Positions 184 through 57,497 of a stretch of DNA of 61,112 nucleotides are shown here, in pieces; the first letter of the stretch is position 1, and every line of letters starts with the position of its first letter. The notes below the pieces were generated by a model. The model was not told the DNA's origin. It ran no database searches and saw only the letters and a program-made list of their open reading frames with translations. Origin of the DNA: a virus (taxonomy: Duplodnaviria; Caudoviricetes); IMG/VR virus record IMGVR_UViG_3300032116_000195, positions 1 to 61,112 of that record. The stretch is one strand, 5' to 3'. The position numbers and the translations under genes are program-made.

Positions 184-1017
184 ATGAAAAAGACAAAACT
201 ATTCAACAACCTGTCCCCCGAACTGATCGCTAAAACCAAACTCAAGCCGGGAGAACAAGTTGTTTACAGGGTTAGCGGCATTACTCCGCATCCTATGGAC
301 CCTACAAAGTGGGCTATCCCATCAGCAAAGAATGTTCCGCCAATGGATCAAATATGGGACGAAGCTAAAAATGATTACGTAGATATTGCTGCTGTAAGGG
401 CGGTAGATGCTGAGGGCAACCATACGTTCCATGATCTTTATTTCTACGGCAATCAAGGCGGACACTTGGTTTTATATGGTGGCCGTGCAGTGGATCAGGA
501 AATTCACTCATACCTTACTCTGTGCAACTATAATGGCTCTAACCCAAACAGAGATACGTCTAAAGAGATTGTATTTGAACTGGTGGATGAGGCTGTGAAG
601 TCTGAGAAGGAAAGCAAGAAGCGTAACATGAAGAGGGAAGCTCTTAATGCTGCAGCTGACTTAAGCCCAGAAGAGGTACGTAACTACGTTGCTGCTCTTG
701 GGCAAGATGATACAAGAAAGATTGAGATACTCAGGAATTACCTAGAGGAGCTGGCGGACAATGATCCAGCAACATTCCTCGATCTTATCAATAACAAACA
801 AGCCGTTATGAAGGCCACAATCAATAGAGCTATCACCAAGGGTGTTATCAATTTTGATGCTGAGCAATCCAAGTTCTCTTGGCCTAACGGAGAGGCTATC
901 CTTACCACAGCCAGAACAACTGGTGGTGATGCCGTTGACGAGCTACTTAGCTATTGCGTGAGCTCAGCCAAGGGTGAGAAGGTTTACCAAACTATTCAGT
1001 CAAAAGCTAAAAAATAG
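184..1017 (+). CDS. Hypothetical phage protein downstream of capsid gene (possibly virion-associated)
   Basis: 277-aa ORF with an A-rich leader, flanked by terminators. Confidence 0.7.
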   Translation: MKKTKLFNNLSPELIAKTKLKPGEQVVYRVSGITPHPMDPTKWAIPSAKNVPPMDQIWDEAKNDYVDIAAVRAVDAEGNHTFHDLYFYGNQGGHLVLYGGRAVDQEIHSYLTLCNYNGSNPNRDTSKEIVFELVDEAVKSEKESKKRNMKREALNAAADLSPEEVRNYVAALGQDDTRKIEILRNYLEELADNDPATFLDLINNKQAVMKATINRAITKGVINFDAEQSKFSWPNGEAILTTARTTGGDAVDELLSYCVSSAKGEKVYQTIQSKAKK

Positions 1018-18400: not shown

Positions 18401-19019
18401 TGGGATATATGATGCGGCTAGTTCTGCTCCTTTTGCATTTGCTATTGCAACACAGTTTGTGTTTGATGCCGACTACATGCTATTGACATATCAGTTTACC
18501 GATGGCTTTGATCTGGATACAAGGACTAGGATTGTCACTCCTAATGTAGGTCAGGACGCTCAGCCTAAGTATGTAGGATGGGGTGTTTCTGCTATATGGC
18601 CAACATCAGGAACTCCACTTCTTGACTGGGGCGGCGACAATACAGGAACAGGATTTGAGTCTGTACTGATTAATGTGGCACAACTTAAGGCGAGTTACCC
18701 ATCTGCTACAACTCTTGTTGTGGATCTCCGGGCATTCTGGTATAGTACAGTTGGTGTGCAGCCTGTAAATGTAGCAGCTACTCTTTGGAAGGGTGGTTCG
18801 CCAATCGAGCAAGGTCCGGGCGGTAGCCCAGCATTCAGCTTTACTAACCCTACAGCTACTGCAGTATTGAATATTAGTTCAGTGGGTAAACAGATAACAT
18901 CTGACGGTTCACCAACTAAATCTGCCAGTTCGGGGGAAAGGGTGGCAACACTTACATATAACCTGATTACAAACACAGGATCATTCAACTCTAACGACAC
19001 TACAACACCAAGCGTATGA
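15429..19019 (+). CDS. Tail nozzle/muzzle-like protein, N-terminal part, with added Ig/MBG-like C-terminal domains
   Basis: GVNNDD..EYLNALNIR, LLYWTDGVNPQRRIN, NRLFLGNNYDG, YKLGVVFFDQAGR, FGTINPES and GIDPYHNE motifs resemble crAss-like nozzle proteins. Confidence 0.65.
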   Translation: MINKKIFLKGVNNDDSYVLMDTGEYLNALNIRFSTSENGKVGQISNVEGNSIKNNSGAFTLPSGTNTTIGAWEDTPNRRVFFFNKNSSGSHGIYCYDADNSTVYTALLSTQVVGGLNFSSPIHSVSMVGNLLYWTDGVNPQRRINVEAGIKLNHVSYTTDVSPYVLDQESNTKMLASVITLIRNQPAFPLTVAKGTEAGYASNFISNEAFQFAYRFVYRDFEVSVFSPLSTLINYHNVDDVTAGYNRIDVTIPTTQKIPQDVIRVEVAAKYVIGGKYSIVKSFTTGFSAHNTGTALTFKFFNDSVGVGVDDPTAYKQFDSIPIRSGTLEIGKNRLFLGNNYDGYQAPSSTSLTVSKENSGGAVTGTWVMLTLGDPPSQITVYLLDITGIGDTWSGYYAPGTYPATTYTYNQSDFRGAGLSQVAVYYGYTIADVRGFSFPGVTATVTGSVPSPSNVANKYVFKSDSSYKLGVVFFDQAGRKCGTVVSDNTKFVTQDRSYNNTAYTTKVDWLLVNNGTPSILQAEIPDWAHYYTVVMTKSLRTNFFMQMRATDVQYAIKANDGTYTYSTTYLETRTGIAVKVDGLNKYGMGYSYQEGDVLKLYGSDNTVRSLKVKDTYGDYVIVDLANLGTIVQYLFEIYTPYAQSVNEFYYEKGVMYPINNPGLSNRSYSTLSGSFTGDVILLDRTVSSTNFIVEAMSPMDLKWQNWNTNIGRTNIVSDARPALKKTSVYWSNVIVPGTQTNGMSTFDALDQTNLPIELNSIQKLQLVSKVESEGTVMLAIGEQETASIYLGEAQIIDNTGNSFLATSSGVIGNVNVMRGSFGTINPESVVRYMGNVYWFDANKGSVVSYSPNGLFPISSNKMMKYFRKVGQDVIGSGLKFYGGIDPYHNEVLMFSPRKSANPAGARLTDMALSSSTYSFTTVSSSSTVTVVGDASYTYTGSQIGPNQATVTGSTGAVTFTYSGTGGTAYGPSSVRPSQVGSYQVVASVASDGIYDAASSAPFAFAIATQFVFDADYMLLTYQFTDGFDLDTRTRIVTPNVGQDAQPKYVGWGVSAIWPTSGTPLLDWGGDNTGTGFESVLINVAQLKASYPSATTLVVDLRAFWYSTVGVQPVNVAATLWKGGSPIEQGPGGSPAFSFTNPTATAVLNISSVGKQITSDGSPTKSASSGERVATLTYNLITNTGSFNSNDTTTPSV

Positions 19020-39405: not shown

Positions 39406-39710
39406 ATTCTTCCTGTTTTATGTAGCTCTTCAATCGTTGACCAGCTTACAGATTCATGAAAGACTGTAGGGTGGAACTCATTCTTTCTGTATACCTGCTG
39501 CATGTAGTATGTCTTGTTGGGTTGTATATCTTCTAGCTTTGTTGGTTCTAGAAGGTTCTCCCCCGAACTGTCCTCCACATACTCAAGCCATTGACCTCCG
39601 TTATTGAACGTCCTCCAGTTCTCCTTAAAGAGAATCTGCAAGTGAGGCGAAACCTTGGATGTCTTTGTTCGTGATCGGCTGGCCGATGAACTTCGTCTTG
39701 TCGCTGCCAT
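39345..39710 (-). CDS. Hypothetical protein (true start probably downstream of 39625)
   Basis: Fills the gap between helicase and resolvase. Confidence 0.4.
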   Translation of the reverse strand: MAATRRSSSASRSRTKTSKVSPHLQILFKENWRTFNNGGQWLEYVEDSSGENLLEPTKLEDIQPNKTYYMQQVYRKNEFHPTVFHESVSWSTIEELHKTGRIWQRKESQQESKVIHSKEIW

Positions 39711-44182: not shown

Positions 44183-44255
44183 TATATCAAAGTTCTTTAA
44201 ACTATTTTAGATAGTGAATTAAACAAATGATTAGTTTTACTATGTTTTTTCAACA

Positions 44256-44263
44256 TAAATTTG
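44256..44263 (+). promoter_or_regulatory. Bacteroidota -7 promoter element for the repressor
   Basis: TAAATTTG matches TAnnTTTG about 20 nt upstream of the ATG. Confidence 0.55.
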
Positions 44264-44282
44264 TTTAGACAATTTTTTAAAT

Positions 44283-44573
44283 ATGAAAACAGTAGGGCAG
44301 AGATTAAAAGATATAAGGCTTGATGCTAGGATGACACAAAAAGAACTGGGAAAACTTGTGGGTCTCAGTCCCGGTTCAATTGGTGCAATGGAGAATGATC
44401 TTTATACACCGAACTTTGATGTTATGCGTGTTTTAAAGAAGAGGCTAAACGCATCATATGATTATATCATAGATGGTGTTAAATCTAATAGTATTGATCT
44501 ACAGAAAGAAAATGAAAGGCTAAAGAGTGAAATAGAGAGACTCACTAGAATAGTTGACAAATTACTGAAATAG
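44283..44573 (+). CDS. XRE-family HTH repressor
   Basis: GQRLKDIR...MTQKELGKLVGLS..SIGAMEN...P; divergent from the recombination/replication operon. Confidence 0.88.
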   Translation: MKTVGQRLKDIRLDARMTQKELGKLVGLSPGSIGAMENDLYTPNFDVMRVLKKRLNASYDYIIDGVKSNSIDLQKENERLKSEIERLTRIVDKLLK

Positions 44574-44721
44574 CATCTCTCTTTTTTAGCTTGTTATTTC
44601 TAGACTTAGCTGCTCGACATGGCTTACAATAAATGGATCTGTTCTGACTCATGCGGTGGTCTATACCGAACTGGTCGAGCGGCTTAGTTTCCCCACAGAC
44701 TTTACACTTTTTTACTTTCAT
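44545..44721 (-). CDS. Small Zn-finger protein (58 aa, not in ORF track)
   Basis: MKVKKCKVCGETKPLDQF...YCKPCR. Confidence 0.55.
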   Translation of the reverse strand: MKVKKCKVCGETKPLDQFGIDHRMSQNRSIYCKPCRAAKSRNNKLKKRDAISVICQLF

Positions 44722-44950
44722 GGTTTACATATTTTTCGTTATAGTATTGCTCGGCATCTCCTTCAAACATGGGGTGGAGGTCGTGCCTATAGGCATCCAT
44801 GATCTGCTCTTTTTCCATTGCTTTGGCTTGTTCTAAAAACTTATCTCTCCATTCATCAGCTGTACCTGCTGATATTTCATCTCTGTTTCGCATCCAAGTG
44901 ATATAGTTATATCTCTCAGCCAACCATTCAACCGCTGTTTGTTGTGCCAT
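44702..44950 (-). CDS. MAQQTAVEWL-family small protein
   Basis: Paralog of 34958-35197 and 35201-35413. Confidence 0.7.
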   Translation of the reverse strand: MAQQTAVEWLAERYNYITWMRNRDEISAGTADEWRDKFLEQAKAMEKEQIMDAYRHDLHPMFEGDAEQYYNEKYVNHESKKV

Positions 44951-44963
44951 CGTTTAATAATTT

Positions 44964-44991
44964 AAAAACCCCGATCCGAAGACCGAGGGTT
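44964..44991 (-). terminator. Intrinsic terminator with UUCG tetraloop
   Basis: Minus strand aaccctcggtc-ttcg-gatcggggtt then a T run. Confidence 0.75.
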
Positions 44992-44996
44992 AGTTT

Positions 44997-45257
44997 TTAG
45001 TTGGTGAATATATCTTCGCAGTATTCATCTGCTGTAGGCCAGTCATCATTCAGCATCAATCCGATCATGACAAAGTCAACAGCATCTTGATACGTTTTCC
45101 TGATCATTTCCACCTCATCATCCAGCATCATTTCAATTTCCGTGATCAGCTCATCGTTGTTCATCTGCTTGGCTATATCGAGTAGCCTTCTGAGTGGAGT
45201 TTCAGTTAAACATCTTTCCATAGTAGTCATTGATTTCAGATTTGTAATACTTTTCAA
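44997..45257 (-). CDS. Hypothetical protein (likely start 45221 or 45230)
   Basis: ORF downstream of the integrase. Confidence 0.55.
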   Translation of the reverse strand: MKSITNLKSMTTMERCLTETPLRRLLDIAKQMNNDELITEIEMMLDDEVEMIRKTYQDAVDFVMIGLMLNDDWPTADEYCEDIFTN

Positions 45258-46488
45258 CGTGTCCTACGTACCGCTCAAAGGCGGTGGAATTGGTGCTGTG
45301 TCCACTGGCGAACTTGATGAACCTCTCAGGTACTTTGTTATAGATCATCGTGGTGATGGCGGTCTTCCTGAGCAAGTGAGGGTGGACCCATTCCCATAAT
45401 GGCTTGGAAACAATGAACTCTTTTCCCCGAACATCTACATCTGCAACAGATACGATCTCGTGAAGGTCATCGTACATCCGGAAAAAGTCTTTCATTCCCT
45501 TATAGACAACCTCTCTGTCAGGCTGGATGGAATAGATCCGCCCGTGCCTTGTCAGGTTCTCCCGATAGATGTCGGAAAGGAACTTAGGCAGTGGCATCTC
45601 CGAGTACACACCAGTCTTCTCATTCTTTTTGCGGAGGTAGACAATATCCTTAGTCAAGATCAGATCTTTTTCTGTCAGACTCATGGCGTCTCCGATCCTC
45701 AAGGTTGTGATCAGAATGGTGGCGCTGATCTCCCACAAAAATTTCTGCTCGGGGGACAGCTTATTGTACATACGATCATCATCATTGAGAAACTTACGAA
45801 CAAACTGGTGATCGAATACCACGATGGCTTTCTGATGGCTGTCCAGTCTCTGTATTTTAGGGATAGAGAAGAACAAGCGATCTGCCCAGTACTTGGTAAT
45901 GATACCAGTCATGTTCATGATCTCGGATCTGCTCTTGATGGCCAGTCCACGATCGATCAGATAGTCCTCGTACTTTTTCCAGTAGTTGGCGAAATCATCA
46001 GCCACTTGTCGTTTCTTTTGGGCATCCCAGTTTGGATCGATGTGGTAGTCTCTGATATCCATTGGCTTGTAAAAGTGGGAGTACTCGTTGAGTAGGTTTG
46101 CCACGTACCTATAGATATCAATCGATGCCTTAGAGTAATGCTTCTTGCCATTAGACTTTACCTCGCCAGTTACCATGTACTTGATGTAGCGCATGAATAG
46201 ATCATTGAGGATATAAGTCTCAGTCTCCGGCAGTTCGGGGGGCTTTTCTTCAAACAGCTCACGTACCTTTTTAAAGTCTCTATGTTCGAGATAAAGTTCT
46301 GTGAGTCTTATTCTTGTTCTTGACAGATCAGCATTCAGTTGGGCAACCTCTGCTGTCCTGCCCTTAAACTCGCCATTAAAGCGAAGGTGAGGGTAGATTG
46401 TGATGCCAGTTGATATCCTATAGGATTCACTCCCATCCGATATTCTTGCTTGTACAACCCGACCTCTTGCATAAAACGTAATCTTCAT
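45202..46488 (-). CDS. int: Tyrosine recombinase/integrase
   Basis: Catalytic R (TLRIGD), K (EKTG), HLLR, SGH and Y; N-terminal arm-binding-like ISTGI segment. Confidence 0.9.
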   Translation of the reverse strand: MKITFYARGRVVQARISDGSESYRISTGITIYPHLRFNGEFKGRTAEVAQLNADLSRTRIRLTELYLEHRDFKKVRELFEEKPPELPETETYILNDLFMRYIKYMVTGEVKSNGKKHYSKASIDIYRYVANLLNEYSHFYKPMDIRDYHIDPNWDAQKKRQVADDFANYWKKYEDYLIDRGLAIKSRSEIMNMTGIITKYWADRLFFSIPKIQRLDSHQKAIVVFDHQFVRKFLNDDDRMYNKLSPEQKFLWEISATILITTLRIGDAMSLTEKDLILTKDIVYLRKKNEKTGVYSEMPLPKFLSDIYRENLTRHGRIYSIQPDREVVYKGMKDFFRMYDDLHEIVSVADVDVRGKEFIVSKPLWEWVHPHLLRKTAITTMIYNKVPERFIKFASGHSTNSTAFERYVGHVEKYYKSEINDYYGKMFN

Positions 46489-46529
46489 AATAGAGGGTTT
46501 AAATTGTTATTAGAGTGCAATATATCTAA

Positions 46530-46760
46530 AATAGTGACACAATTTCCACCTCATGAAGACCAGTGTGCATAACAATATTATCAGGCTTTGGCGAATGGTT
46601 TTGCTCATTTCAGCACACCAAATCAGCACACCTTTACGTAATTAGTTGATTTTCAATTACTATCTACTTAACATAATATACGGTGCGTGCCGTTGGGTAT
46701 TGCAAAGTAGTTGATTCTATTGACTTTGCAAAGTTATCCTCAGAATTATCATCACACTTT
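46530..46760. other. Putative attP region with dif-like core
   Basis: TCAGCACACC direct repeats (46610, 46623), an IHF-consensus match (46639-46651, minus) and a XerD-like arm TTATGTTAAGT (46666-46676, minus) directly upstream of int. Confidence 0.6.
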
Positions 46761-47101
46761 TACACTACCATAACAGACCTCATCATCGTTAAAATTTTCT
46801 CTGTGCTGAGTAGTTCTGATGAGTCAACAATGCGTTTACAGAGGTGATCATAAAGATCGGCATAATCATCGATATCTCGATATCTATTTGGATGATCTTT
46901 GAGGTGGTGAATAATTGTCGTATGGTGAAGGTTCAGTAAACCCCCGATCTGAGTGATAGTTCGGGAGTGATACCTTCTCATGACGTTAACAATGGCGCAC
47001 TTGATGTTGATGATCTCCCGTCTGCGAGATCTTGTGTAGGTAATGTCAAGACCAGTAAAATCTTTTGCCAGTTCAACAAGTTCTTTAAATTTTTGATCCA
47101 T
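46760..47101 (-). CDS. DnaA domain IV-like HTH protein
   Basis: RSRRREI...TITQIG..LN.HHTTIIH resembles the DnaA C-terminal DNA-binding signature. Confidence 0.7.
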   Translation of the reverse strand: MDQKFKELVELAKDFTGLDITYTRSRRREIINIKCAIVNVMRRYHSRTITQIGGLLNLHHTTIIHHLKDHPNRYRDIDDYADLYDHLCKRIVDSSELLSTEKILTMMRSVMVV

Positions 47102-47145
47102 TTTTATTTTTTAAAAGGTCAATAACTAAGTCGCACATTTCTTCA

Positions 47146-47328
47146 TTAATCCTTCTCAGGGACTCTATAGTTATCCTTCGTTCTTGTACGGACATTGAGT
47201 CTAACTTCGAGAGAGCATCGTTTATCTGTCTGAATATTTGCATTACTTCCTTGTTCATATAGTTTTAGTTTTTCTTCAGGGTATCCGAGTTGTCGGTGGA
47301 TATGAATCATCCATTCATTGAAGGTCAT
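47146..47328 (-). CDS. Small hypothetical protein
   Basis: 60-aa ORF with coupled start/stop. Confidence 0.45.
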   Translation of the reverse strand: MTFNEWMIHIHRQLGYPEEKLKLYEQGSNANIQTDKRCSLEVRLNVRTRTKDNYRVPEKD

Positions 47329-47561
47329 TAGTAATAAATTTTAACGTAATCTCCGACCACTTCAAAGGTGATCCGAAGGTTCTCGAAATAGAGACATCTA
47401 CCCATGTACTGCTGGGTATAGAAACCGATCTTGGGTTCTTCATCTCTTTGGCAGATGAGTTGCAGTTCCCCCGATGGTTCGGGAGAACTGAACCCATCCA
47501 GTCCCCAAGAGAATGACACTCCATCTTCGATTCTACTCATAATCTGTCGAAACTTTGTCAT
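47328..47561 (-). CDS. Hypothetical protein
   Basis: 77-aa ORF in the operon. Confidence 0.5.
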   Translation of the reverse strand: MTKFRQIMSRIEDGVSFSWGLDGFSSPEPSGELQLICQRDEEPKIGFYTQQYMGRCLYFENLRITFEVVGDYVKIYY

Positions 47562-47769
47562 TCAATACTGCTTTTGCTATGTTAATAATCTCATCAGCCA
47601 GTTCAGTCTCAGCCAGTAATCCTGACTGACCCTCCTCAAAGTGAAGGATTTCTACCGACCTAAATCTTGCTGACAATTTATGGATGTCGTAATGTTCTCC
47701 ATCCATGTCTGCGTCAACGAAGATCTCTATGTCTTCGCCATTGACTGGGTATTCAAATCGTACTTTCAT
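47533..47769 (-). CDS. Hypothetical protein
   Basis: ATG at 47769 overlaps the upstream stop. Confidence 0.55.
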   Translation of the reverse strand: MKVRFEYPVNGEDIEIFVDADMDGEHYDIHKLSARFRSVEILHFEEGQSGLLAETELADEIINIAKAVLNDKVSTDYE

Positions 47770-48041
47770 AAGTTTACTTCTATGGTTTTGAGGTAGCCGT
47801 TTCCTTTGTTGAGGATGGCTTCTTCCCGTGAATTGAATGCTTCGCTGGTTACGATCTTGCCTGCCCATCTTTTTACGTTCACGTAGATGGTGTTGACAAG
47901 GTCGTTCTTGGATCTGTACTTGCTGGCGTAATTCCCTTTACGATTCCAAGTCAGTTTCTTGCCATCTACCTCTCCAACGTAGCAGTTGAGTTCCTTTACG
48001 AACGTGAGGTTCTTTACTGGTCTTCCTTCTCTTGTGTGCAT
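47766..48041 (-). CDS. Hypothetical phage protein
   Basis: TREGRPV...W...G....NDL pattern. Confidence 0.6.
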   Translation of the reverse strand: MHTREGRPVKNLTFVKELNCYVGEVDGKKLTWNRKGNYASKYRSKNDLVNTIYVNVKRWAGKIVTSEAFNSREEAILNKGNGYLKTIEVNL

Positions 48042-48160
48042 GGTTTTGTATGTTCGGATATTCCCCCGAACTGGGTTAAAAGTTGCCTTACCTTTTCCCC
48101 TAATTCCATATTGTTAGGGGTGTCTAAGATTAGTTGTACTGGGACAGCGATATAGTCCAT
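48014..48160 (-). CDS. Small hypothetical protein (48 aa, not in ORF track)
   Basis: MDYIAVPVQLILDTPNNMELGEKVRQLL...; starts just after the tRNA-like gene. Confidence 0.45.
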   Translation of the reverse strand: MDYIAVPVQLILDTPNNMELGEKVRQLLTQFGGISEHTKPCTQEKEDQ

Positions 48161-48173
48161 GATTAAATTTTAG

Positions 48174-48244
48174 CACCCATCCGAGGATTCGAACCTCGAC
48201 CTCTGCCTTTGGACGGCATTATTCTACCATTAAAATAGACGGGG
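48174..48244 (-). tRNA. Degenerate tRNA-Trp(CCA)-like gene
   Basis: Cloverleaf with T arm cgagg-TTCGAAT-cctcg, D loop AATGGTA and anticodon loop gtCCAaa; mismatches at 1:72, 10:25 and 27:43. Confidence 0.65.
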
Positions 48245-48254
48245 AGGATAGCGT

Positions 48255-48560
48255 CCTATCCTATATGCGATCGGATATAGTTAGTACCGATTTGGCTTTT
48301 TTATATGCGATGGGGTATAGTATTGCACTATTGACAAGAATAATCTGAATTGCATATAAATATTTACCATAATGTGCGACATAATGCACAGTAACACAAA
48401 TTATGTTAGTGTGCAGATTTTAGTTTATTTAATGGGTAAATTGTATATCACAATTCTTCGAAAATGAATGACAAATGTCAAGTTTTTTGTGCAATTTACT
48501 GGACAAATCTGCCAGTTTCACTACCTAACTATGTCACAAATTTTTGCTGTTTTTGTGACA
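48255..48560. repeat. Array of short palindromes/inverted repeats
   Basis: CTATATGCGATCGGATATAG and a variant copy, TGCACA..TAACA/TGTTA..TGTGCA, and TGTCACAAA-N11-TTTGTGACA. Confidence 0.65.
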
Positions 48561-48594
48561 AAAAAACCCCTTCAACGTAGACACGTTCGGGGGT
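48560..48594 (-). terminator. Intrinsic terminator ending the early small-gene operon
   Basis: Minus strand acccccgaacgt-gtct-acgttgaaggggt then T7. Confidence 0.75.
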
Positions 48595-48606
48595 GGAAAA
48601 CACACA

Positions 48607-48921
48607 CTAAAACGAAGACATCAAAAATTCCTTTCGCCACTCATCCTTAATGCACGGCTCAATGTCTTCCCACAAATAATCTCTCATCAGTTCTTTTATC
48701 TCTCTTTCTTCCCGATCGCCTCGTTCCCAAGTACTATGGACATCCGATCTTCGGTACTCAAAGTTGTGGCTGTGGATCAGTTCGATCAGCCTACTAAATT
48801 TTTCATCTTCCATATTTCTCATGACTTTTATTTCGGTATGGTAGTCTAACATTAAGGACTGGATGTGTTCTATTTCCACCTTGGTTAACACTATCCCAAG
48901 GTCAACGCATTTACTTATCAT
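48607..48921 (-). CDS. Hypothetical early protein
   Basis: 104-aa ORF coupled to the upstream gene. Confidence 0.6.
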   Translation of the reverse strand: MISKCVDLGIVLTKVEIEHIQSLMLDYHTEIKVMRNMEDEKFSRLIELIHSHNFEYRRSDVHSTWERGDREEREIKELMRDYLWEDIEPCIKDEWRKEFLMSSF

Positions 48922-49100
48922 TGTTCAACTGGTTTCATTCCATGATATTCATCTCCAGTCAACCTCTTTTTTTCTCCGTCAAAGAAGGTGACATCGTAAA
49001 CGATGTTCTGACCACCCAAGTAGACTTGCTCTACCTTGGCGACCTTGCCTCTTCCGCTGTAAAATCTAACGTCAAATGTTTTGGTAATTGTCTCTCTCAT
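48918..49100 (-). CDS. Small early protein (SH3-like beta pattern)
   Basis: AC-rich leader before the ATG. Confidence 0.6.
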   Translation of the reverse strand: MRETITKTFDVRFYSGRGKVAKVEQVYLGGQNIVYDVTFFDGEKKRLTGDEYHGMKPVEQ

Positions 49101-49120
49101 TGGTGTGTGGTTTAGTGAGG

Positions 49121-49164
49121 AACTGGCGGTGATATCGCTTCACCTTCGGCCTTTCCTGCCAGTT
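49121..49164 (-). ncRNA. Anticodon-less tRNA-like element A
   Basis: aactggc/gccagtt 7-bp stem plus ggtga-agcgata-tcacc 5-bp arm. Confidence 0.7.
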
Positions 49165-49173
49165 CGGGGGTAA

Positions 49174-49305
49174 TTAATCTTCCCAAGCAGTGATGATCTT
49201 CTCCCCAGTAGAATCATCCAAGTAAATAGTCCAATCTCCAATCGTTACATAGAGGGACTCATCGGATCGAATATCGATCGTGATGCCATTAATAATCATT
49301 TCCAT
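49174..49305 (-). CDS. Small early protein (43 aa, not in ORF track)
   Basis: MEMIINGITIDIRSDESLYVTIGDWTIYLDDSTGEKIITAWED* with aaaaccacacact leader. Confidence 0.6.
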   Translation of the reverse strand: MEMIINGITIDIRSDESLYVTIGDWTIYLDDSTGEKIITAWED

Positions 49306-49567
49306 AGTGTGTGGTTTTATAGTAATTAACTGAATATTGAAATGAACCTTTAGTGCCTTTCTTTACTTCATGTCGGGATGGAACATAGTTTCCATAGTAG
49401 TCTTTATGCCCCATTGCAGAAAGCATACAAGCCCCACATTCGATCAGATGCATAGCCTCCCTTCCGATTGACCCTTCCATCCTCCATGCCATACCCGTGT
49501 CGATTAGGTGTTGGATGTAGTCATAGCCTCGCTCAATTTGGAGTCTTTTGATTGTTTGGTAGTTCAT
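49289..49567 (-). CDS. Hypothetical early protein
   Basis: 92 aa with AC-rich leader. Confidence 0.7.
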   Translation of the reverse strand: MNYQTIKRLQIERGYDYIQHLIDTGMAWRMEGSIGREAMHLIECGACMLSAMGHKDYYGNYVPSRHEVKKGTKGSFQYSVNYYKTTHYGNDY

Positions 49568-49586
49568 GTGTGTGTGTTTTGATGAG

Positions 49587-49634
49587 GACTGCCTCGCCTA
49601 ACGAGGGCGAATGATAGCGGTCTATCGGGCAGTT
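49587..49634 (-). ncRNA. Anticodon-less tRNA-like element B
   Basis: actgcc/ggcagt stem, gatag-accg-ctatc hairpin and tcgcc-ctcgtta-ggcga arm. Confidence 0.7.
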
Positions 49635-49642
49635 CGGGGGTA

Positions 49643-49825
49643 TTATCTACTAACAAATACTCCGTTTTTTGTATACTCTACCTTGTATCCATTTTTTATC
49701 AGTTCAGCATAGTATTCAGACTTCGGCATGATATAACCATCTGCCCTTCGGAATCCGCATCTGCATTTTCCGGTGGATGTCTTCAACTTAATTGTGGACT
49801 TTTTAGTTAGTGCGTTGTCGTTCAT
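49643..49825 (-). CDS. Small early protein
   Basis: 60-aa ORF with an ATGA overlap. Confidence 0.55.
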   Translation of the reverse strand: MNDNALTKKSTIKLKTSTGKCRCGFRRADGYIMPKSEYYAELIKNGYKVEYTKNGVFVSR

Positions 49826-49905
49826 TTTTTCAGTTTTTTGTGGTAAAGTGATGCAAAGATGATGTTCGCAAGTGCGAAGGCGGTGATGGTTGAGATGATT
49901 ACCAT
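49822..49905 (-). CDS. 27-aa membrane peptide
   Basis: MVIISTITAFALANIIFASLYHKKLKK*; coupled on both sides. Confidence 0.5.
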   Translation of the reverse strand: MVIISTITAFALANIIFASLYHKKLKK

Positions 49906-50036
49906 GTTATTCCGAGGATTTGTTTTCCAATGGTGGTTACTTGGCGGTCCATGCCCATCATGTAGAGGGTAATGAATCCGATCTGAATTGTCAAGGCAAG
50001 GGTGACGATGGCGGTCATTGCTTTTAGAACTTTCAT
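49899..50036 (-). CDS. 45-aa membrane peptide (not in ORF track)
   Basis: MKVLKAMTAIVTLALTIQIGFITLYMMGMDRQVTTIGKQILGITW* with AC-rich leader. Confidence 0.6.
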   Translation of the reverse strand: MKVLKAMTAIVTLALTIQIGFITLYMMGMDRQVTTIGKQILGITW

Positions 50037-50056
50037 GTGTGTGTGTTTTGATGAGG

Positions 50057-50098
50057 AACTGAGGGCAGTATCGCTCTGCCTTATCCACTCTCTCAGTT
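50057..50098 (-). ncRNA. Anticodon-less tRNA-like element C
   Basis: aactgag/ctcagtt stem, D-loop-like gagtgg and ggcag-agcgata-ctgcc arm. Confidence 0.7.
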
Positions 50099-50105
50099 CG
50101 GGGGA

Positions 50106-50345
50106 TTACTTTGAAATTTCAGCATCCATTAAGTAATCGTGAATGCAGTCCAATTCAGACTTGTTTAAATCGTTGTAGTCACTTACAAGGAAGGATTCGT
50201 ACATCTTGATGGCATCTGCCCATAGGTAGTCAAGTTCCCTCTCGTTTCGGTCAGGCAGTGACATTGCCATGCAGAAGACCCCGTAACTATTCATGTAGCT
50301 CCTGTGCATTGCTTGGTCAAAATCGGTTGTGTCAATTTTATACAT
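50106..50345 (-). CDS. Hypothetical early protein
   Basis: ATG at 50345 after the AC-rich leader. Confidence 0.65.
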   Translation of the reverse strand: MYKIDTTDFDQAMHRSYMNSYGVFCMAMSLPDRNERELDYLWADAIKMYESFLVSDYNDLNKSELDCIHDYLMDAEISK

Positions 50346-50365
50346 TTTTGTGTGGTTTTGATGAG

Positions 50366-50411
50366 GACTGCCTCCTGTCACGAACAGGATGCCATCAGAA
50401 TGGGGGCAGTT
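50366..50411 (-). ncRNA. Anticodon-less tRNA-like element D
   Basis: actgcc/ggcagt stem, ccat-tctg-atgg hairpin and tcctg-ttcgtga-cagga arm. Confidence 0.7.
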
Positions 50412-50418
50412 CGGGGGA

Positions 50419-50499
50419 TTACATATTCCCTGCTAAGACAAGACCAAAGGCAAGGACGACCAATACGATCATCAAGTAAGTAAAGTCTCTATTTTTCAT
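50419..50499 (-). CDS. 26-aa membrane peptide (not in ORF track)
   Basis: MKNRDFTYLMIVLVVLAFGLVLAGNM*; ATGA overlap, stop abuts element D. Confidence 0.55.
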   Translation of the reverse strand: MKNRDFTYLMIVLVVLAFGLVLAGNM

Positions 50500-50666
50500 G
50501 CATAAAGGTTTGGGTTATTCAATTGCATCCTCAGTAGAAAGGTGCGGTACATTTGTCTCGCCTCCCTTATTGAAATGCCATACAATTCGACATATTGGCG
50601 GACTATCTTGTCATCGATAGTGAAGGTCTTTCTGACCTTGTTTTTTCTGCTAAATACGGGTCTCAT
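50496..50666 (-). CDS. Small basic protein (56 aa, not in ORF track)
   Basis: MRPVFSRKNKVRKTFTIDDKIVRQYVELYGISIREARQMYRTF... with AC-rich leader. Confidence 0.6.
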   Translation of the reverse strand: MRPVFSRKNKVRKTFTIDDKIVRQYVELYGISIREARQMYRTFLLRMQLNNPNLYA

Positions 50667-50677
50667 TGGTGTGTGGT

Positions 50678-50860
50678 TTAAATAGTTACAAATTCGGGTT
50701 CTAACTTGCTTGGCGATGGGTAGATGTAGAAGAATAAGTTCGGGAACTTCTCCTTCAATGCATTAGCCTTTTGTTCGGCATCTTTTCGTTTGTCATAAAA
50801 TCCATGAGTTCCGATTTCATTGTAGTTACCTTCTTCAATTACGTGGTAGTATACTTTCAT
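50678..50860 (-). CDS. Small early protein
   Basis: 60 aa with AC-rich leader. Confidence 0.6.
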   Translation of the reverse strand: MKVYYHVIEEGNYNEIGTHGFYDKRKDAEQKANALKEKFPNLFFYIYPSPSKLEPEFVTI

Positions 50861-50876
50861 CGTGTGTGGTTTTGAT

Positions 50877-50921
50877 TGGGAACTGAGCAGGGAATCGAAC
50901 CCTGCTTACAACCATTCAGTT
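50877..50921 (-). ncRNA. Anticodon-less tRNA-like element E (canonical T loop, encoded CCA)
   Basis: aactga/tcagtt stem, atggtt D-loop-like segment, gcaggg-TTCGATT-ccctgc, then C-CCA. Confidence 0.75.
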
Positions 50922-50928
50922 CGGGGAC

Positions 50929-51121: not shown

Positions 51122-51174
51122 GGTTAAGACCACCTTGCGGTGGTTTCGGCTACTCTAAGCCTCATCAGTTAACC
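51122..51174 (-). ncRNA. Hammerhead ribozyme, type I
   Basis: ggttaa CTGATGA ggct-tagagt-agcc GAAA ccacc-gcaa-ggtgg TC ttaacc: complete core and three perfect stems. Confidence 0.93.
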
Positions 51175-51630
51175 TTGCAGTTCGGGAATTTCAATCGTCT
51201 GCTCTTCCAACTTCGATAGTGGTAGCTTATTTGAGAATACCCAACCGAATTCATTGGACATTTTCGCCATCCATTCACGACCTTGTGGGTTATTGGCTAC
51301 ATACCCATCAGCGAAAGGCTTCTCAGTACGTATTGAATTGTCGTAGTATTGGACACGAACAAAAGGGGAGTTGACCATGCTTCCGGAATAGGATACTTCG
51401 TTGATCAACTTTATGCCTTCCGGTATCGTATAAATGGCGAAAAGTTCGGGGTAGTCATTGATGGAATTGAACCTCTCAAGGAATACCACATCATTGTACT
51501 TTTTGTAGCGGTTGACTACCCTTACCCATTCGCTTTGATTGTAGTCACTTTTGGAGTGGTTCAGTACTTCATCGAACGTTAACTCTCTAACTTCCATGAT
51601 AGGAAGCGGTGTGGTGAATGTCAGTTTCAT
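51169..51630 (-). CDS. Hypothetical early protein flanked by two hammerheads
   Basis: 153 aa; the stop codon lies in stem I of the downstream ribozyme. Confidence 0.7.
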   Translation of the reverse strand: MKLTFTTPLPIMEVRELTFDEVLNHSKSDYNQSEWVRVVNRYKKYNDVVFLERFNSINDYPELFAIYTIPEGIKLINEVSYSGSMVNSPFVRVQYYDNSIRTEKPFADGYVANNPQGREWMAKMSNEFGWVFSNKLPLSKLEEQTIEIPELQG

Positions 51631-51643
51631 GTGTGTGTGATTT

Positions 51644-51700
51644 AGTGTGTTTCGCCATTCTGTGGCTCATCAGTTCGGGAGAAATACCCGAAGACACACT
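51644..51700 (-). ncRNA. Hammerhead ribozyme, type III
   Basis: agtgtg TC ttcggg-tatttct-cccgaa CTGATGA gcca-cagaa-tggc GAAA cacact. Confidence 0.93.
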
Positions 51701-51940
51701 CTCATCAGTCACCCTCACGGGTACGCTTTCTGCCGAAGCAGAGACATTGGATACCCAAACGATAAATCAGATTGGGTAGCGGCTGATGGGTTACTTTCGA
51801 TGTGACGTGCCTTGTCGTGGTGGATGTCAGTGCATTGATGGGATTGATTACCCATTGTTGACTCTCCGATTGTGGGTTGCCATGGGGCAGAGCCGATGTC
51901 CCGATTTCGGTTAACACATTCAGTCGATTTCACTCCAATA
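51701..51940 (-). ncRNA. Structured leader RNA of the early operon
   Basis: tctgc-TTCG-gcaga, accc-GTGA-gggt and tacccaa/ttgggta hairpins closed by catcag/ctgatg. Confidence 0.55.
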
Positions 51941-52291
51941 AACAAAGAACTTTTTTGTACTTAGAAATTTTGCACTTACACTCTACACCTCATCCGATAT
52001 TTTCCCTTGCGGTGGTTTCGTTATGTGGTTGCATTTAGACTATTGCACTCAGGCAGTCGCACCATTACTTCAGAGCGGTTGTAAGCGGAAACTTCAAAGA
52101 ACTAAAGTAGTGACTAACTCTCTACTTTCGAGAGTAAAATTGCAAGGAAAATATTTATCCGCAAAATGTGGACTAAGTATTGACAACGAAAAAGAGAATT
52201 TAAAATCTCTACAAATCAGTCATATCAACAACGAAAACGTTTTCGTAAGTTTTAGTAAAAAAGTTTAAAAGTACTTTCTAAAAACTCTCGA

Positions 52292-52495: not shown

Positions 52496-52585
52496 GTGGT
52501 TAGATTTGGGAGGCGGAAAATACATTACAAAATACTCCCATGATTACGTGATTTCCCGTAATGAAAGTGGGGCAGTTCGGGGGCA

Positions 52586-52909
52586 TCAAAGCCTCTTATT
52601 AAGTAGATACCTACGTATAGCAGACAAGTACTCCCGACCAAGAGGAGCAAGAGAAAGTTTATAGTCTTGTATATGTATAAGAGAGAGGGAAGAGAGAGTA
52701 TTAACCGAATTGTATAACGCCCCAACACTAATTGGATGTCCCATTCGTTTGGCATGGCGTTGAACTCCAGACTGACGGATGCCTTCGGGAAGGTATGCAA
52801 TGGAGTATAGGACAAAGATATCACTGGCCGAAAGTTCTGGAAGGTCGAACCTTCGAGATACTTTGATAATGGCAGAGGGCATGAGAAAAATATACTTATT
52901 CAACTTCAT
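52586..52909 (-). CDS. MarR-like winged-helix protein
   Basis: LSASDIFVLYSI...ALYNSVNTLSSLSLI...LSLAPLGREYL. Confidence 0.55.
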   Translation of the reverse strand: MKLNKYIFLMPSAIIKVSRRFDLPELSASDIFVLYSIAYLPEGIRQSGVQRHAKRMGHPISVGALYNSVNTLSSLSLIHIQDYKLSLAPLGREYLSAIRRYLLNKRL

Positions 52910-53411
52910 GGGTCGGAAAGGATGAAAAGAAGGGGCGGCAATTGTAACATGACGTTCACCGCCACCTTGTGTGGTTTTTCAGTACTATCGTTGATGTTTT
53001 TTATCGTTTGTCTGCATCCATTTTCCCCTTCCGATTTGCATCCCTTCGGACTCATTGCATCCACTCGCATGATGCACATGATTAAGGCACAACCGATTAG
53101 CATTTTGGATACACTAATGGTGCATTAATTTTGTGTGCCGAAAACCGATTTCGGGATGCCCAAATTGACCCCCACCCGATGCGCAAATCCGACTCCGCAA
53201 CCGCACGCCACACCCACCATTTATATGCATTACCCCCACAATTCATCCACACAAATCCTATTTCTCCAACCAGATCCTACCAACCACAGAACCCACGACT
53301 TTTTGAATGGGCCTGTGAGGTCATTACAGGCGATTCTAGGCGGTCTCTATGTTTAATCAGCAGAGATATTGCGGCAATAACAACCGCCATATTCTTGGTT
53401 TATTAAACCTG

Positions 53412-53503
53412 TAGAACAGGCAGGATTCGAACCTGCAAAGGCAGCTACAACCCTATTCACTTTGTAAGGGGAGCACATCCTACGTACCATACGCCACTGT
53501 TCT
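53412..53503 (-). ncRNA. tRNA-like RNA with expanded, irregular anticodon region
   Basis: agaacag/ctgttct acceptor, gcgt-atggt-acgt D arm and gcagg-TTCGAAT-cctgc T arm; no assignable anticodon. Confidence 0.65.
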
Positions 53504-57449: not shown

Positions 57450-57489
57450 TTCACCCCCTGTTTTCCACACCCCCGAACTTGGCCCATTC

Positions 57490-57497
57490 TAACTTTG
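57490..57497 (+). promoter_or_regulatory. Bacteroidota -7 promoter element
   Basis: TAACTTTG upstream of the glycosyltransferase-terminase cluster. Confidence 0.55.

What the first reader, a model, noticed from the sequence alone, without database searches (positions are those of the whole stretch)
49121..50921. Family of five anticodon-less mini-tRNA elements with covarying stems
Seen (minus strand): A aactggc..ggtga[agcgata]tcacc-gccagtt; B aactgcc..tcgcc[ctcgtta]ggcga-ggcagtc; C aactgag..ggcag[agcgata]ctgcc-ctcagtt; D aactgcc..tcctg[ttcgtga]cagga-ggcagtc; E aactga..gcaggg[ttcgatt]ccctgc-tcagtt-C-CCA. The stem sequences differ but pairing is kept. Each has a 7-nt loop with CG at loop positions 3-4 and a 12-position acceptor+T helix (7+5 or 6+6; B and D have a terminal A-C mismatch). 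The connector is a short hairpin or a GG-containing D-loop-like segment. Inference: mascRNA/tmRNA-TLD-like processing signals, or decoys for tRNA-targeting host defences.
Basis: partly seen in the sequence, partly recalled or inferred. Interest (0 to 1): 0.86.

Follow-up and report, generated by a model that had tools for sequence, protein, structure and literature searches.

The report
Phage tRNA-like intergenic RNA punctuation elements
Between the small early genes of an uncultured freshwater phage sit five miniature tRNA look-alikes (acceptor stem plus T-arm, no anticodon) that occupy the same slots as self-cleaving ribozymes, so they most likely mark where a long early messenger RNA is cut into single-gene pieces.

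Summary
The five elements exist exactly as described. They belong to a family of 77 distinct copies in 18 sources, the window plus 17 related phage loci.

**Structure.** The fold is a 7-8 bp closing helix stacked on a 5-6 bp hairpin with a 7-nt loop. It pairs in 97% of cells and shows compensatory changes in 10 of 12 pairs. Rfam 15 holds no such family.

**Position.** Each copy starts 5-10 nt after a stop codon and ends about 19 nt before the next ATG.

**New here.** The same slots in the window hold two hammerhead ribozymes. Relatives carry more hammerheads and a twister. Two orthologous genes, 79% and 92% identical, have a hammerhead upstream in one phage and a tRNA-like element in another.

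**Reading.** The best explanation is RNA punctuation of a polycistronic early transcript by host tRNA-processing nucleases (RNase P and/or RNase Z). This is inferred, not shown.

**Unexplained.**
- The 5' motif CCCCCGAACTG is nearly invariant.
- It also occurs alone, mostly on the strand of the early array, including antisense inside late genes.
- CCA is not a family feature.
- The decoy idea has no support.

The parts
49120..49170 (-). tRNA-like element A: C5 tract, 8-bp closing helix, GG..CC mini-hairpin connector, 5-bp hairpin with loop AGCGATA
   Evidence: R1 67.8 bits; MFE fold z -3.24; sequence; coordinates
49586..49640 (-). tRNA-like element B: C5 tract, closing helix with an A.C mismatch at pair 2, 5-bp connector hairpin, 5-bp hairpin with loop CTCGTTA
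   Evidence: R1 53.9 bits; fold z -3.18
50056..50104 (-). tRNA-like element C: C5 tract, 8-bp closing helix, unstructured GG-containing connector, 5-bp hairpin with loop AGCGATA
   Evidence: R1 66.1 bits; fold z -3.11; coordinates
50365..50417 (-). tRNA-like element D: C5 tract, closing helix with an A.C mismatch at pair 2, 4-bp connector hairpin, 5-bp hairpin with loop TTCGTGA
   Evidence: R1 61.8 bits; fold z -1.91
50880..50926 (-). tRNA-like element E: C4 tract, 7-bp closing helix, D-loop-like ATGGT connector, 6-bp hairpin with canonical T-loop GGTTCGATTCC; followed by CCA
   Evidence: R1 54.1 bits; fold z -3.80; weak mascRNA-menRNA match 18.3 bits, E 6.4
51122..51174 (-). Hammerhead ribozyme, type I, in the next intergenic slot. 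The upstream ORF's stop codon TAA lies in stem I. Predicted cut after GUC between 51128 and 51127, 19 nt before the ATG at 51108
   Evidence: Core CUGAUGA / stem II / GAAA / stem III / GUC read. MFE gives the three-stem fold. Rfam RAGATH-1-hammerhead only 22.4 bits, E 3.1. Coordinates
51644..51700 (-). Hammerhead ribozyme, type III, at the 3' end of a ~660-nt non-coding stretch. CCCGAACUG forms part of stem I and the core. Predicted cut between 51693 and 51692
   Evidence: Rfam RF00008 44.4 bits, E 2.2e-7, below gathering 48.5; fold; coordinates
52573..52583 (-). Solo CCCCCGAACTG, 2 nt after the stop of ORF 52586-52909, at the head of the array; followed by a different hairpin, no closing CAGTTC
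48560..48593 (-). Intrinsic-terminator-like hairpin at the end of the array. A variant motif CCCCCGAACGT forms the 5' arm, followed by a T7 run
   Evidence: Read; coordinates. Not listed by the simple terminator scan, probably because of its internal loop
1251..1303 (-). Weak family-like hairpin (motif plus an 8-bp GAACTGGT/ACCAGTTC helix, no T-like arm), antisense inside the 1792-aa late ORF
   Evidence: R1 21.5 bits, E 0.003
18926..18936 (-). Solo CCCCCGAACTG, antisense inside the late ORF 15429-19019 (read as Ser-Ser-Gly)
46231..46241 (-). Solo CCCCCGAACTG, sense inside the tyrosine-recombinase-like ORF 45202-46488
215..225 (+). Solo CCCCCGAACTG on the opposite strand to the array, sense inside late ORF 184-1017
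39560..39570 (+). Solo CCCCCGAACTG on the opposite strand to the array, with a distal CAGTTC 46 nt on
   Evidence: R1 16 bits
48063..48073 (+). Solo CCCCCGAACTG on the opposite strand to the array, about 100 nt from tRNA-Trp

Best explanation
The five elements are RNA signals that punctuate a polycistronic early transcript of a podophage. The phage probably infects Bacteroidota.

Each element folds into the acceptor-stem/T-arm half of a tRNA: a 13-bp coaxial stack, a 7-nt loop with C-G at positions 3-4, and a short connector in place of the D and anticodon arms.

I infer that the host's tRNA-processing endonucleases recognise this shape. RNase P would cut at the 5' edge (after the C tract). 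RNase Z would cut at the 3' edge (after the C that follows the helix, before the conserved U).

The cuts would turn the long transcript into single-gene mRNAs. Each would have a short (~18-19 nt) unstructured A/C-rich leader, and the structured element would be left on one of the ends.

Hammerhead (types I and III) and twister ribozymes do the same job by self-cleavage in other slots of the same arrays. The modules are exchanged between phages by recombination at the conserved flanks.

Shown: the sequences, the fold and its covariation, the strand, the register to stop and start codons, the slot equivalence with ribozymes, and the absence from Rfam.

Inferred: transcription as one unit, the cleavage, the enzymes, and the consequences.
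For: 1. Fold. 77 distinct copies pair in 97.4% of cells. 10 of 12 pairs show compensatory changes, 0 of 500 shuffles reach the score, and slid controls give 24-47% (that alignment is fitted to the model). The independent MAFFT alignment gives 97.8%. The connector mini-hairpins also change in a compensatory way (GGT/ACC, GGA/TCC, GCA/TGC, CCAT/ATGG, GATAG/CTATC).

2. tRNA likeness.
- GGTTCRANYCC is present in 21 of 77 copies.
- An AATGGT connector like the D-loop of the phage's own tRNA-Trp occurs in one subtype.
- blastn of one such copy hits only tRNA genes of unrelated phages.
- The stack length stays at 13 bp whether the connector enters after pair 7 or pair 8: (7,6) in 21 copies and (8,5) in 16, out of 56 parsed.

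3. Register. The stop codon lies 5-10 nt before the helix in 70 of 77 copies. The distance from helix end to ATG is 14-21 nt in 72 of 77, median 19.

4. Same slots hold ribozymes.
- Window: hammerhead III (44.4 bits, E 2e-7) and hammerhead I.
- Relatives: 18 regex core matches, 16 after removing two duplicated loci. I accept 13 by eye, and 11 of those lie just upstream of an ATG.
- Rfam hammerhead III in L028, L020 and L010, and twister-P1 in L009 at 47.5 bits, E 2e-7.
- The type I cut sites lie 19-21 nt before the ATG, the same distance as the tRNA-like helix end.

5. Swaps. The window's 59-aa ORF has hammerhead I upstream, and its 79%-identical orthologue in L023 has a tRNA-like element. A 253-aa ORF has hammerhead III in L010 and tRNA-like elements in L019, L023 and L031, at 92% identity.

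6. No per-gene promoter or terminator.
- There is no TAnnTTTG box on the array strand between 46737 and 52819 (the motif is recalled).
- No T-run terminator lies at the five elements.
- Real tRNA genes lie in the same arrays, so tRNA-processing enzymes must act on these transcripts anyway.

7. A precedent exists. Plant mitochondrial t-elements are tRNA-like structures at mRNA ends, proposed as RNase P/Z signals (PMC1920247, passages read).
Against: - No RNA ends have been seen. The only RNA run that holds the locus gives two low-depth contigs inside one gene.
- RNase P or RNase Z would not need the nearly invariant GAACUG/CAGUUC helix or the C5 tract.
- 56 of 77 loops are not canonical T-loops.
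- The stack is 13 bp, not 12 bp.
- CCA is absent in 75 of 77 copies.
- G.U pairs (14) do not clearly outnumber A.C cells: 8 were counted, plus the A.C at pair 2 in the CAGTCC copies that the alignment hides as a gap. Pair types therefore do not prove which strand folds.
- CCCCCGAACTG also occurs without any fold, on a preferred strand, inside late genes. This points to a second function, possibly at the DNA level.
- The host and its enzymes are unknown. Bacteroidota is inferred from about 30%-identical TerL and primase-helicase hits.
Confidence: 0.5

Rival explanations
1. Mobile regulatory or recombination cassettes. The conserved flanks (CCCCCGAACTG and CAGTTCCTCATCAAAAC) serve mainly as short homology arms, or as core sites for the phage's tyrosine recombinase. 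They would let small early genes be swapped between co-infecting phages, as PeSL cassettes do in T4-type phages. The fold would be secondary. This is not exclusive of the best explanation.
For: - DNA contigs of other samples match up to the element and then diverge: loose ends at 50045, 50080, 50102, 50107, 51143 and 51177.
- The same downstream gene carries different element subtypes in different phages.
- A tyrosine-recombinase-like ORF lies at 45202-46488 on the same strand.
- PeSL papers exist (PMC2839356, PMC4122927; search listing and start of abstracts only).
Against: - Homology arms do not explain the covarying stems, the constant 13-bp stack, the T-loop motif or the fixed distance to the ATG.
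- Direct repeats of an active recombination site inside essential late genes would delete them.
- No Bacteroidota-type promoter box lies on the array strand between 46737 and 52819, and PeSLs include a promoter.
Confidence: 0.15
2. A protein-recognised polar signal. CCCCCGAACTG (as DNA or RNA) binds a phage factor that acts on early-direction transcription or on its RNA. The factor could be a one-way transcription roadblock or terminator, an antitermination site of the nut type (linear box plus hairpin), a sequence-specific RNase, or a strand-specific nick site as in T5. The tRNA-like fold would be an accessory.
For: - The 11-mer occurs 11 times in the window against 0 for its control.
- Of 15 solo copies in the three genomes read in full, 12 lie on the array strand.
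- 9 of the 10 solos inside late ORFs are antisense to them, mostly placed in one reading phase as Ser-Ser-Gly.
- The motif also precedes hammerheads (window 51178-51186; L010) and heads the arrays without a fold.
- A variant forms the 5' arm of the terminator-like hairpin at 48560-48593.
Against: - Two relatives, estimated 91% and 92% complete, have no copy outside the array.
- Divergent family members change the motif and compensate in the helix, so pairing matters more than the letters.
- No candidate factor was identified.
- Some hammerhead slots lack the motif.
Confidence: 0.12
3. Translation elements. The tRNA-like elbow, held about 19 nt upstream of each start codon, docks on the ribosome or otherwise helps initiation on Shine-Dalgarno-less mRNAs. 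Alternatively it brings the stop and start codons together for re-initiation. Ribozymes would serve the same end by creating a 5' end near the ATG.
For: - The spacing to the ATG is tight: 14-21 nt in 72 of 77 copies.
- The stop codon lies 5-10 nt before the helix, so stop and start are adjacent in space.
- The leaders are A/C-rich.
- Self-cleavage promotes cap-independent translation in some eukaryotic RNA viruses (PMC13725137, abstract read).
Against: - No test was possible.
- Most loops are not T-loops.
- A relative (MW202828.1) uses a plain 6-bp hairpin in the same layout.
- The hammerhead III body ends 12-13 nt before the ATG, not 19 nt.
Confidence: 0.08
4. A new class of self-cleaving ribozyme, suspected because the motif shares its neighbourhood with hammerhead and twister ribozymes.
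For: - It shares slots with three known self-cleaving types.
- Its size of 43-50 nt is like pistol or hatchet ribozymes (recalled).
- The flanks and loop C-G are conserved.
Against: - The conserved letters sit in a Watson-Crick helix that covaries in divergent copies.
- The connector, where a catalytic core would be, differs completely between subtypes in both sequence and structure.
- No pseudoknot is evident.
Confidence: 0.05
5. tRNA-mimic decoys, or hairpin promoters for an unrecognised phage RNA polymerase.
For: - The shape is an acceptor/T-arm, and there are many copies.
- N4 virion RNA polymerase uses hairpin promoters (recalled).
- A 3051-aa virion-type protein is encoded at 22040-31195.
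Against: - The register between stop and start codons argues for a cis role.
- No PF00940 match in 5 genomes, though the control set did not ring either.
- No DFDxD motif in any of the six frames and no T7-type motif B in the giant protein.
- No PDB relative by sequence.
- Pfam matches only an ART-PolyVal domain (E 2.7e-15) in the giant protein.
Confidence: 0.05

Closest known systems
Plant mitochondrial t-elements (PMC1920247; passages read)
   Same: tRNA-like structures that are not tRNAs, embedded in mRNA untranslated regions. Their ends coincide with mRNA ends, they are proposed as signals for RNase P and RNase Z, and they were found by the GGTTCRANYCC T-arm motif.
   Different: - Here the elements are in a bacteriophage, in tandem arrays between nearly every early gene.
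- They have invariant flanks and a fixed register to stop and start codons.
- Only 21 of 77 carry the T-arm motif.
- They are interchangeable with self-cleaving ribozymes.
- No ends have been mapped.
MALAT1 mascRNA / MEN-beta tRNA-like (Rfam RF01684)
   Same: An anticodon-less tRNA-like fold whose RNase P cleavage makes the 3' end of the upstream RNA (recalled).
   Different: It is eukaryotic and occurs as one copy per transcript. The Rfam score here is 18.3 bits against a gathering score of 42.5, for element E only. The other four elements do not match.
Mitochondrial tRNA punctuation; T7 early-mRNA RNase III sites (both recalled)
   Same: A host nuclease cuts a polycistronic transcript at structured signals between cistrons.
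   Different: Animal mitochondria use real tRNAs. T7 uses long RNase III hairpins. Here the signals are 43-50-nt half-tRNAs mixed with ribozymes.
Hammerhead and twister ribozymes near phage genes (review PMC6765202; passages read)
   Same: They lie in intergenic positions in phage operons, and a role in processing polycistronic mRNA has been suggested.
   Different: The review calls the biological purpose undefined. Here ribozymes and a host-enzyme substrate replace each other upstream of orthologous genes, which gives that suggestion a direct comparative test.
PeSL promoter-early stem-loop cassettes of T4-type phages (PMC2839356, PMC4122927; listing and start of abstracts only)
   Same: Repeated composite motifs flank small variable early genes and mark mosaic boundaries.
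   Different: PeSLs are promoter plus terminator. Here no promoter box and no T-run were found, and the fold is tRNA-like.
REP elements of enterobacterial operons (recalled)
   Same: Repeated intergenic hairpins that can stabilise the upstream cistron.
   Different: REPs are simple palindromes without tRNA geometry or a fixed distance to the next start codon.

Membership tests
tRNA (Rfam RF00005 / ARAGORN) | Cloverleaf with D arm and anticodon arm; score at or above gathering | tested here: not met
   ARAGORN and Rfam report only tRNA-Trp (48173-48244) and a 93-nt tRNA-Gly-like gene (53411-53503) in the window. None of the five elements is reported.
Plant mitochondrial t-elements (functional class) | Acceptor stem stacked on a T-arm carrying GGTTCRANYCC | tested here: inconclusive
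   The acceptor plus stacked hairpin is present in all five. The motif is present in element E only, and in 21 of 77 family copies.
Plant mitochondrial t-elements (functional class) | Element borders coincide with mapped mRNA 5'/3' ends; cut by RNase P / RNase Z | not testable with these tools
   Only assembled contigs of public runs could be laid. There is no end information.
mascRNA-menRNA (RF01684) | Covariance-model score at or above 42.5 bits | tested here: not met
   18.3 bits, E 6.4, element E only.
tmRNA tRNA-like domain | tmRNA gene with tag reading frame; acceptor ending in CCA | tested here: not met
   ARAGORN finds no tmRNA. CCA follows the helix in 2 of 77 copies.
Hammerhead ribozyme (the two neighbouring elements, not the five) | CUGAUGA and GAAA core, three stems, NUH cleavage triplet | tested here: met
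   Both cores, the stems and GUC were read, and the MFE gives three-stem folds. Rfam scores are below gathering: 44.4 of 48.5 for type III, and 22.4 of 56.3 for the RAGATH-1 model of type I. Self-cleavage was not tested.
Intrinsic (rho-independent) terminator | GC-rich hairpin followed by a T run | tested here: not met
   None of the five is listed by the scan. They are followed by CCTCATCAAAAC.
PeSL cassettes | Early promoter consensus next to a stem-loop | tested here: not met
   No sigma-70-like excess: 17 found against 17.0 expected. No TAnnTTTG on the array strand between 46737 and 52819.
PeSL cassettes | Located at mosaic boundaries of variable early genes | tested here: met
   Contigs of other samples diverge at the elements. 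Element subtypes differ upstream of orthologous genes.
N4-type hairpin promoter | A phage-encoded (virion) T7-like RNA polymerase is present | tested here: inconclusive
   No PF00940 match in 5 genomes, but the control set did not ring. No motif B or DFDxD. No PDB relative of the 3051-aa protein.
Any described RNA family (Rfam 15) | Match at E up to 10 over the five elements | tested here: not met
   Only the weak mascRNA match to E. There is nothing for A-D, and nothing for the family copies in 8 related loci at E up to 0.5.

The most novel reading that the evidence does not exclude
A group of uncultured phages runs a modular RNA punctuation code. Half-tRNA substrates of host RNase P/Z and self-cleaving ribozymes (hammerhead I, hammerhead III, twister) would be freely exchangeable cassettes that each deliver a cut at a fixed distance (~19 nt) from the next start codon. 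This would give the long-sought biological role of phage hammerhead and twister ribozymes. It would also be the first tRNA-punctuation system outside organelles and eukaryotic nuclei. On top of it, the 11-nt word CCCCCGAACTG would be a separate strand-polar genome-wide signal read by an unknown factor.
Probability: 0.35. Interest if true: 0.85.

Novelty: new variant of a known kind. Interest (0 to 1): 0.74.

Why it matters
tRNA-like processing signals are known from plant mitochondria and from MALAT1. I found no description of them as a repeated punctuation system in a bacteriophage. Four full-text searches and Rfam 15 gave nothing that fits.

The review I read states that the purpose of most bacterial and phage hammerhead and twister ribozymes is still undefined (PMC6765202).

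Here nature has done the swap experiment. Orthologous genes carry either a ribozyme or a half-tRNA at the same place. If the half-tRNAs are cut by RNase P/Z, the shared function is mRNA cleavage at a defined distance from the start codon.

This is testable with simple in-vitro assays. It would also supply compact natural insulator parts for Bacteroidota-type expression systems.

Tried and rejected
**Cultured-phage relatives.** blastn of 5 kb of the array and of two single elements against 50,697 phage records found no family member. The only matches were T-arm hits to tRNA genes.

**Bacterial genomes.**
- Model R1 finds only 2 weak hits (29-30 bits) in those 80. I take the rest as chance matches in 596 Gb.
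- The 40 or more stretches not returned were not examined.

**First viral scan.** Three loci (L017, L018, L026) are chance matches with no R1 hit.

**Second viral scan.**
- It gave 45 stretches, 23 of them new loci.
- R1 at E up to 1e-4 hits 8 of the 23: L161, L162, L163, L169, L170, L172, L173 and L175.
- L162 is the same contig as L012.
- These new copies were not added to the alignments.

**RNA evidence.**
- One metatranscriptome run held a small share of the stretch.
- Its two contigs (51173-51421 and 51445-51595) lie between the two predicted hammerhead cut sites.
- They have depth about 3, may be DNA, and show no ends.
- I draw nothing from this. A second RNA run laid nothing.

**Phage RNA polymerase.** I looked for one to test a promoter reading and found none. 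For the crAss-like phage phi14:2, the authors found no common motif upstream of early transcripts (bioRxiv 10.1101/2020.03.07.982082, passages read).

**G.U versus A.C counting.** I used it to decide which strand folds. It was inconclusive.

**Stack-length parser.** It failed on 21 of 77 copies, mainly the CAGTCC copies cut short by an alignment gap and a subtype with a 6-nt loop. Those 21 are left out of the 13-bp count.

**MW202828.1.** Model R1 does not score the possible tRNA-like fold in this record, so that fold is by eye only.

**Integron attC idea.** Recalled R''/R' core consensus. I rejected it because the T-loop motif and the stacked geometry are unexplained by it and the core does not fit.

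**16S rRNA idea.** I recalled from memory a possible complementarity of the motif to 16S rRNA. It was not tested, and I make no claim.

**Not consulted or not available.**
- Supplementary files of papers were not consulted. The promoter tables of the phi14:2 paper might bear on early promoters in related phages.

Full report
**What the window is.**
- The window is a 61,112-bp IMG/VR virus record.
- The large terminase and the primase-helicase find only about 30-34%-identical relatives, in podophages of Flavobacterium, Cellulophaga and Tenacibaculum, and in an uncultured 'Manatee Spring' phage.
- A crAss-type muzzle-protein homologue and a 3051-aa protein with an ART-PolyVal domain are encoded on the plus strand.
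- Public runs that hold the locus are labelled freshwater, lake water or 'fungus metagenome'.
- Late genes run on the plus strand from 1 to about 33 kb and again from about 53 kb. Replication and early-type genes run on the minus strand from about 33.6 to 52.9 kb.
- The finding lies in a minus-strand array of ORFs of about 25-150 codons between 52.6 and 48.6 kb.

- Each has the layout: stop codon, 1-3 nt, C4-5, GAACTG + 1-2 nt, a connector of 10-18 nt, a 5-6 bp hairpin with a 7-nt loop, the complement of the first strand ending CAGT(T/C)C, then CTCATCAAAAC(A/C)n and ATG.
- RNAfold returns this fold as the minimum-energy structure for all five (z -1.9 to -3.8).
- The 11-mer CCCCCGAACTG occurs 11 times in the window. 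Its reversed control occurs 0 times.

**A large family.**
- A gapped pattern found 23 IMG/VR stretches. Three are chance matches.
- A looser pattern added 23 loci, 8 of which carry real copies.
- A MAFFT alignment of 58 distinct copies supports two stacked helices. 97.8% of cells pair, all five hairpin pairs and the innermost acceptor pair covary, 0 of 500 shuffles reach the score, and slid controls give 23-47%.
- A covariance model built from this alignment finds exactly the five window copies at 54-68 bits. Their complementary strands score 7-9 bits.
- The same model finds 102 copies, 77 of them distinct, in 29 sources.
- In that larger set, divergent copies change the otherwise invariant GAACTG/CAGTTC helix in a compensatory way (GAGCTG/CAGCTC, GAACCG/CGGTTC, GAACTA/TAGTTC, AACCTG/CAGGTT). 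As a result 10 of 12 pairs show double changes. This alignment is fitted to the model and leans towards it.
- Several subtypes differ only in the connector:
  - an unstructured AATGGT-type segment with a canonical T-loop;
  - a 3-bp mini-hairpin followed by GAA, with loop AGCGAnA;
  - a 4-5-bp hairpin with loops (T/C)TCG(T/C)(G/T)A;
  - a short form with a 6-nt loop.
- The stack is 13 bp in 41 of the 56 copies I could parse, whether split 7+6 or 8+5.

**How tRNA-like are they?**
- GGTTCRANYCC, the motif used to find plant t-elements, is present in 21 of 77 copies, and in the window only in E.
- Loop positions 3-4 are C-G in 70 of 77 copies.
- 67 of 77 connectors offer either a GG in an unstructured segment or a mini-hairpin loop ending in G. 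This is compatible with a D-loop/T-loop type contact but does not prove one.
- No copy is called a tRNA or tmRNA.
- The only Rfam echo is mascRNA-menRNA at 18.3 bits for E.
- CCA follows the helix in 2 of 77 copies.
- After the helix the consensus is C, U, C/A, A. From memory, a U after the discriminator and the absence of CCA suit RNase Z. I could not check this here.

**Register.**
- The upstream stop codon ends 5-10 nt before the helix in 70 of 77 copies.
- The helix ends 14-21 nt before the ATG of the next ORF in 72 of 77 copies, median 19.

**The key new observation: ribozymes in the same slots.**
- In the window, the slot above element E holds a type I hammerhead (51122-51174). It has a full core, three stems and a GUC triplet. 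The upstream ORF's stop codon lies in stem I, and the cut site is 19 nt before the ATG.
- The next slot holds a type III hammerhead (51644-51700; Rfam 44.4 bits, E 2e-7, just under gathering).
- A core search in the related loci gave 18 matches. I accept 13 by eye, and 11 of those lie directly upstream of an ATG.
- Rfam confirms three type III copies and a twister-P1 (47.5 bits, E 2e-7). The 3' end of the twister lies 19 nt before an ATG.
- Clustering the downstream ORFs shows two orthologous genes with different upstream modules:
  - the window's 59-aa ORF has hammerhead I, while L023 has a tRNA-like element (79% identity);
  - a 253-aa ORF has hammerhead III in L010 and tRNA-like elements in L019, L023 and L031 (92% identity).
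- Real tRNA genes also sit in these arrays.

**Mechanism.**
- I find no per-gene promoter and no terminator at the elements.
- A terminator-like hairpin with a T7 run closes the array at 48560-48593.
- I therefore read the array as one or a few long transcripts that are cut at each slot.
  - The ribozymes would do it themselves.
  - The half-tRNAs would recruit RNase P at the 5' border and/or RNase Z at the 3' border.
  - An RNase Z-type cut would leave an 18-nt leader, matching the 19-21-nt leader left by hammerhead I.
  - An RNase P-type cut would leave the element on the 5' end of the downstream mRNA, as hammerhead III does.
- All of this is inference. No RNA ends are available.

**What this does not explain.**
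- CCCCCGAACTG is far more conserved than a shape-reading nuclease would need.
- It also occurs without the fold: at the head of arrays, upstream of hammerheads, and inside ORFs.
- In the three genomes read in full, 12 of 15 solo copies lie on the strand of the early array.
- 9 of the 10 solos inside late ORFs are antisense to them, mostly as AGT TCG GGG (Ser-Ser-Gly).
- Two other near-complete relatives have no copy outside the array.
- This suggests a second, strand-polar signal of unknown nature (see the rival explanations).
- Contigs from other samples diverge exactly at the elements, so they are also mosaic boundaries, as PeSLs are in T4-type phages.

**Wider context.**
- The GenBank phage MW202828.1 has the same layout (stop, hairpin, ~20-nt A/C-rich leader, ATG) in 8 slots. 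It uses an unrelated 16-nt palindromic hairpin.
- One of its slots holds a possible 8+5 tRNA-like fold of different sequence. My model does not score that fold.
- The principle of a structured module between early cistrons thus seems older than this particular family.

**Verdict.**
- The processing-signal reading is the best supported, at about 0.5.
- Membership in mascRNA, tmRNA or tRNA families fails.
- The family is undescribed in Rfam 15 and in the papers I could search.
- It is a new variant of a known kind (tRNA-like processing signals).
- Its unusual value is that it is interchangeable with hammerhead and twister ribozymes.

Noticed in passing
window 51701-52291 (-): About 600 nt without an ORF of note lie between the first small ORF of the array and the type III hammerhead. 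The stretch is AT-rich at its start and may hold the early promoter(s) and a long structured leader. Rfam reports nothing there at E up to 10.
   Followed up: partly
window 53411-53503 (-): A 93-nt tRNA-Gly(CCC)-like gene with a 36-nt insertion or long arm in the anticodon/variable region (ARAGORN; Rfam tRNA 31.8 bits). Its acceptor stem AGAACAG/CTGTTCT resembles the elements' GAACTG/CAGTTC.
   Followed up: no
window 48560-48593 (-): A terminator-like hairpin whose 5' arm is a variant of the family motif (CCCCCGAACGT), followed by T7. It lies at the end of the array, just before an AT-rich non-coding stretch and tRNA-Trp.
   Followed up: partly
window 215-225 (+), 1292-1302 (-), 18926-18936 (-), 39560-39570 (+), 46231-46241 (-), 48063-48073 (+), 52573-52583 (-); G002 and G003 (L032-L039): Solo copies of CCCCCGAACTG without the fold. 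They are strongly over-represented and mostly on the strand of the early array. 9 of the 10 inside late ORFs are antisense, usually read as Ser-Ser-Gly.
   Followed up: partly
L009 7657-7721 (-): A type-P1 twister ribozyme match (47.5 bits, E 1.9e-7, below gathering 67.2) in the 5' leader of the first array gene of a related phage. A type I hammerhead follows, and its core TGA is the stop codon of that gene.
   Followed up: partly
L183 (MW202828.1) 43804-49906 (+): A related GenBank phage repeats a 16-nt perfect palindrome (6-bp stem, TTAA loop) in 8 intergenic slots with the same stop / hairpin / A/C-rich leader / ATG layout. Slot 44476-44572 also holds a larger fold that may be an 8+5 tRNA-like element of unrelated sequence.
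   Followed up: partly
window 50045-50107 and 51143-51177: DNA contigs from other samples match up to these points and then continue with unrelated sequence. One continues into the 5' half of a different element subtype. This indicates cassette exchange and recombination at or inside the elements.
   Followed up: no
window 22040-31195 (+), 15429-19019 (+), 45202-46488 (-), 37795-38547 (-): A 3051-aa protein with an ART-PolyVal ADP-ribosyltransferase domain. A crAss-type muzzle-protein homologue. A tyrosine-recombinase-like ORF in a phage with no other sign of lysogeny. A NUMOD/I-HmuI-like endonuclease.
   Followed up: no
window 57473-57497 (+): CCCCCGAACTT lies 9 nt upstream of a TAACTTTG box and 25 nt upstream of the ATG at 57505. 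This is the only place where a motif variant sits beside a Bacteroidota-type -7 box.
   Followed up: no
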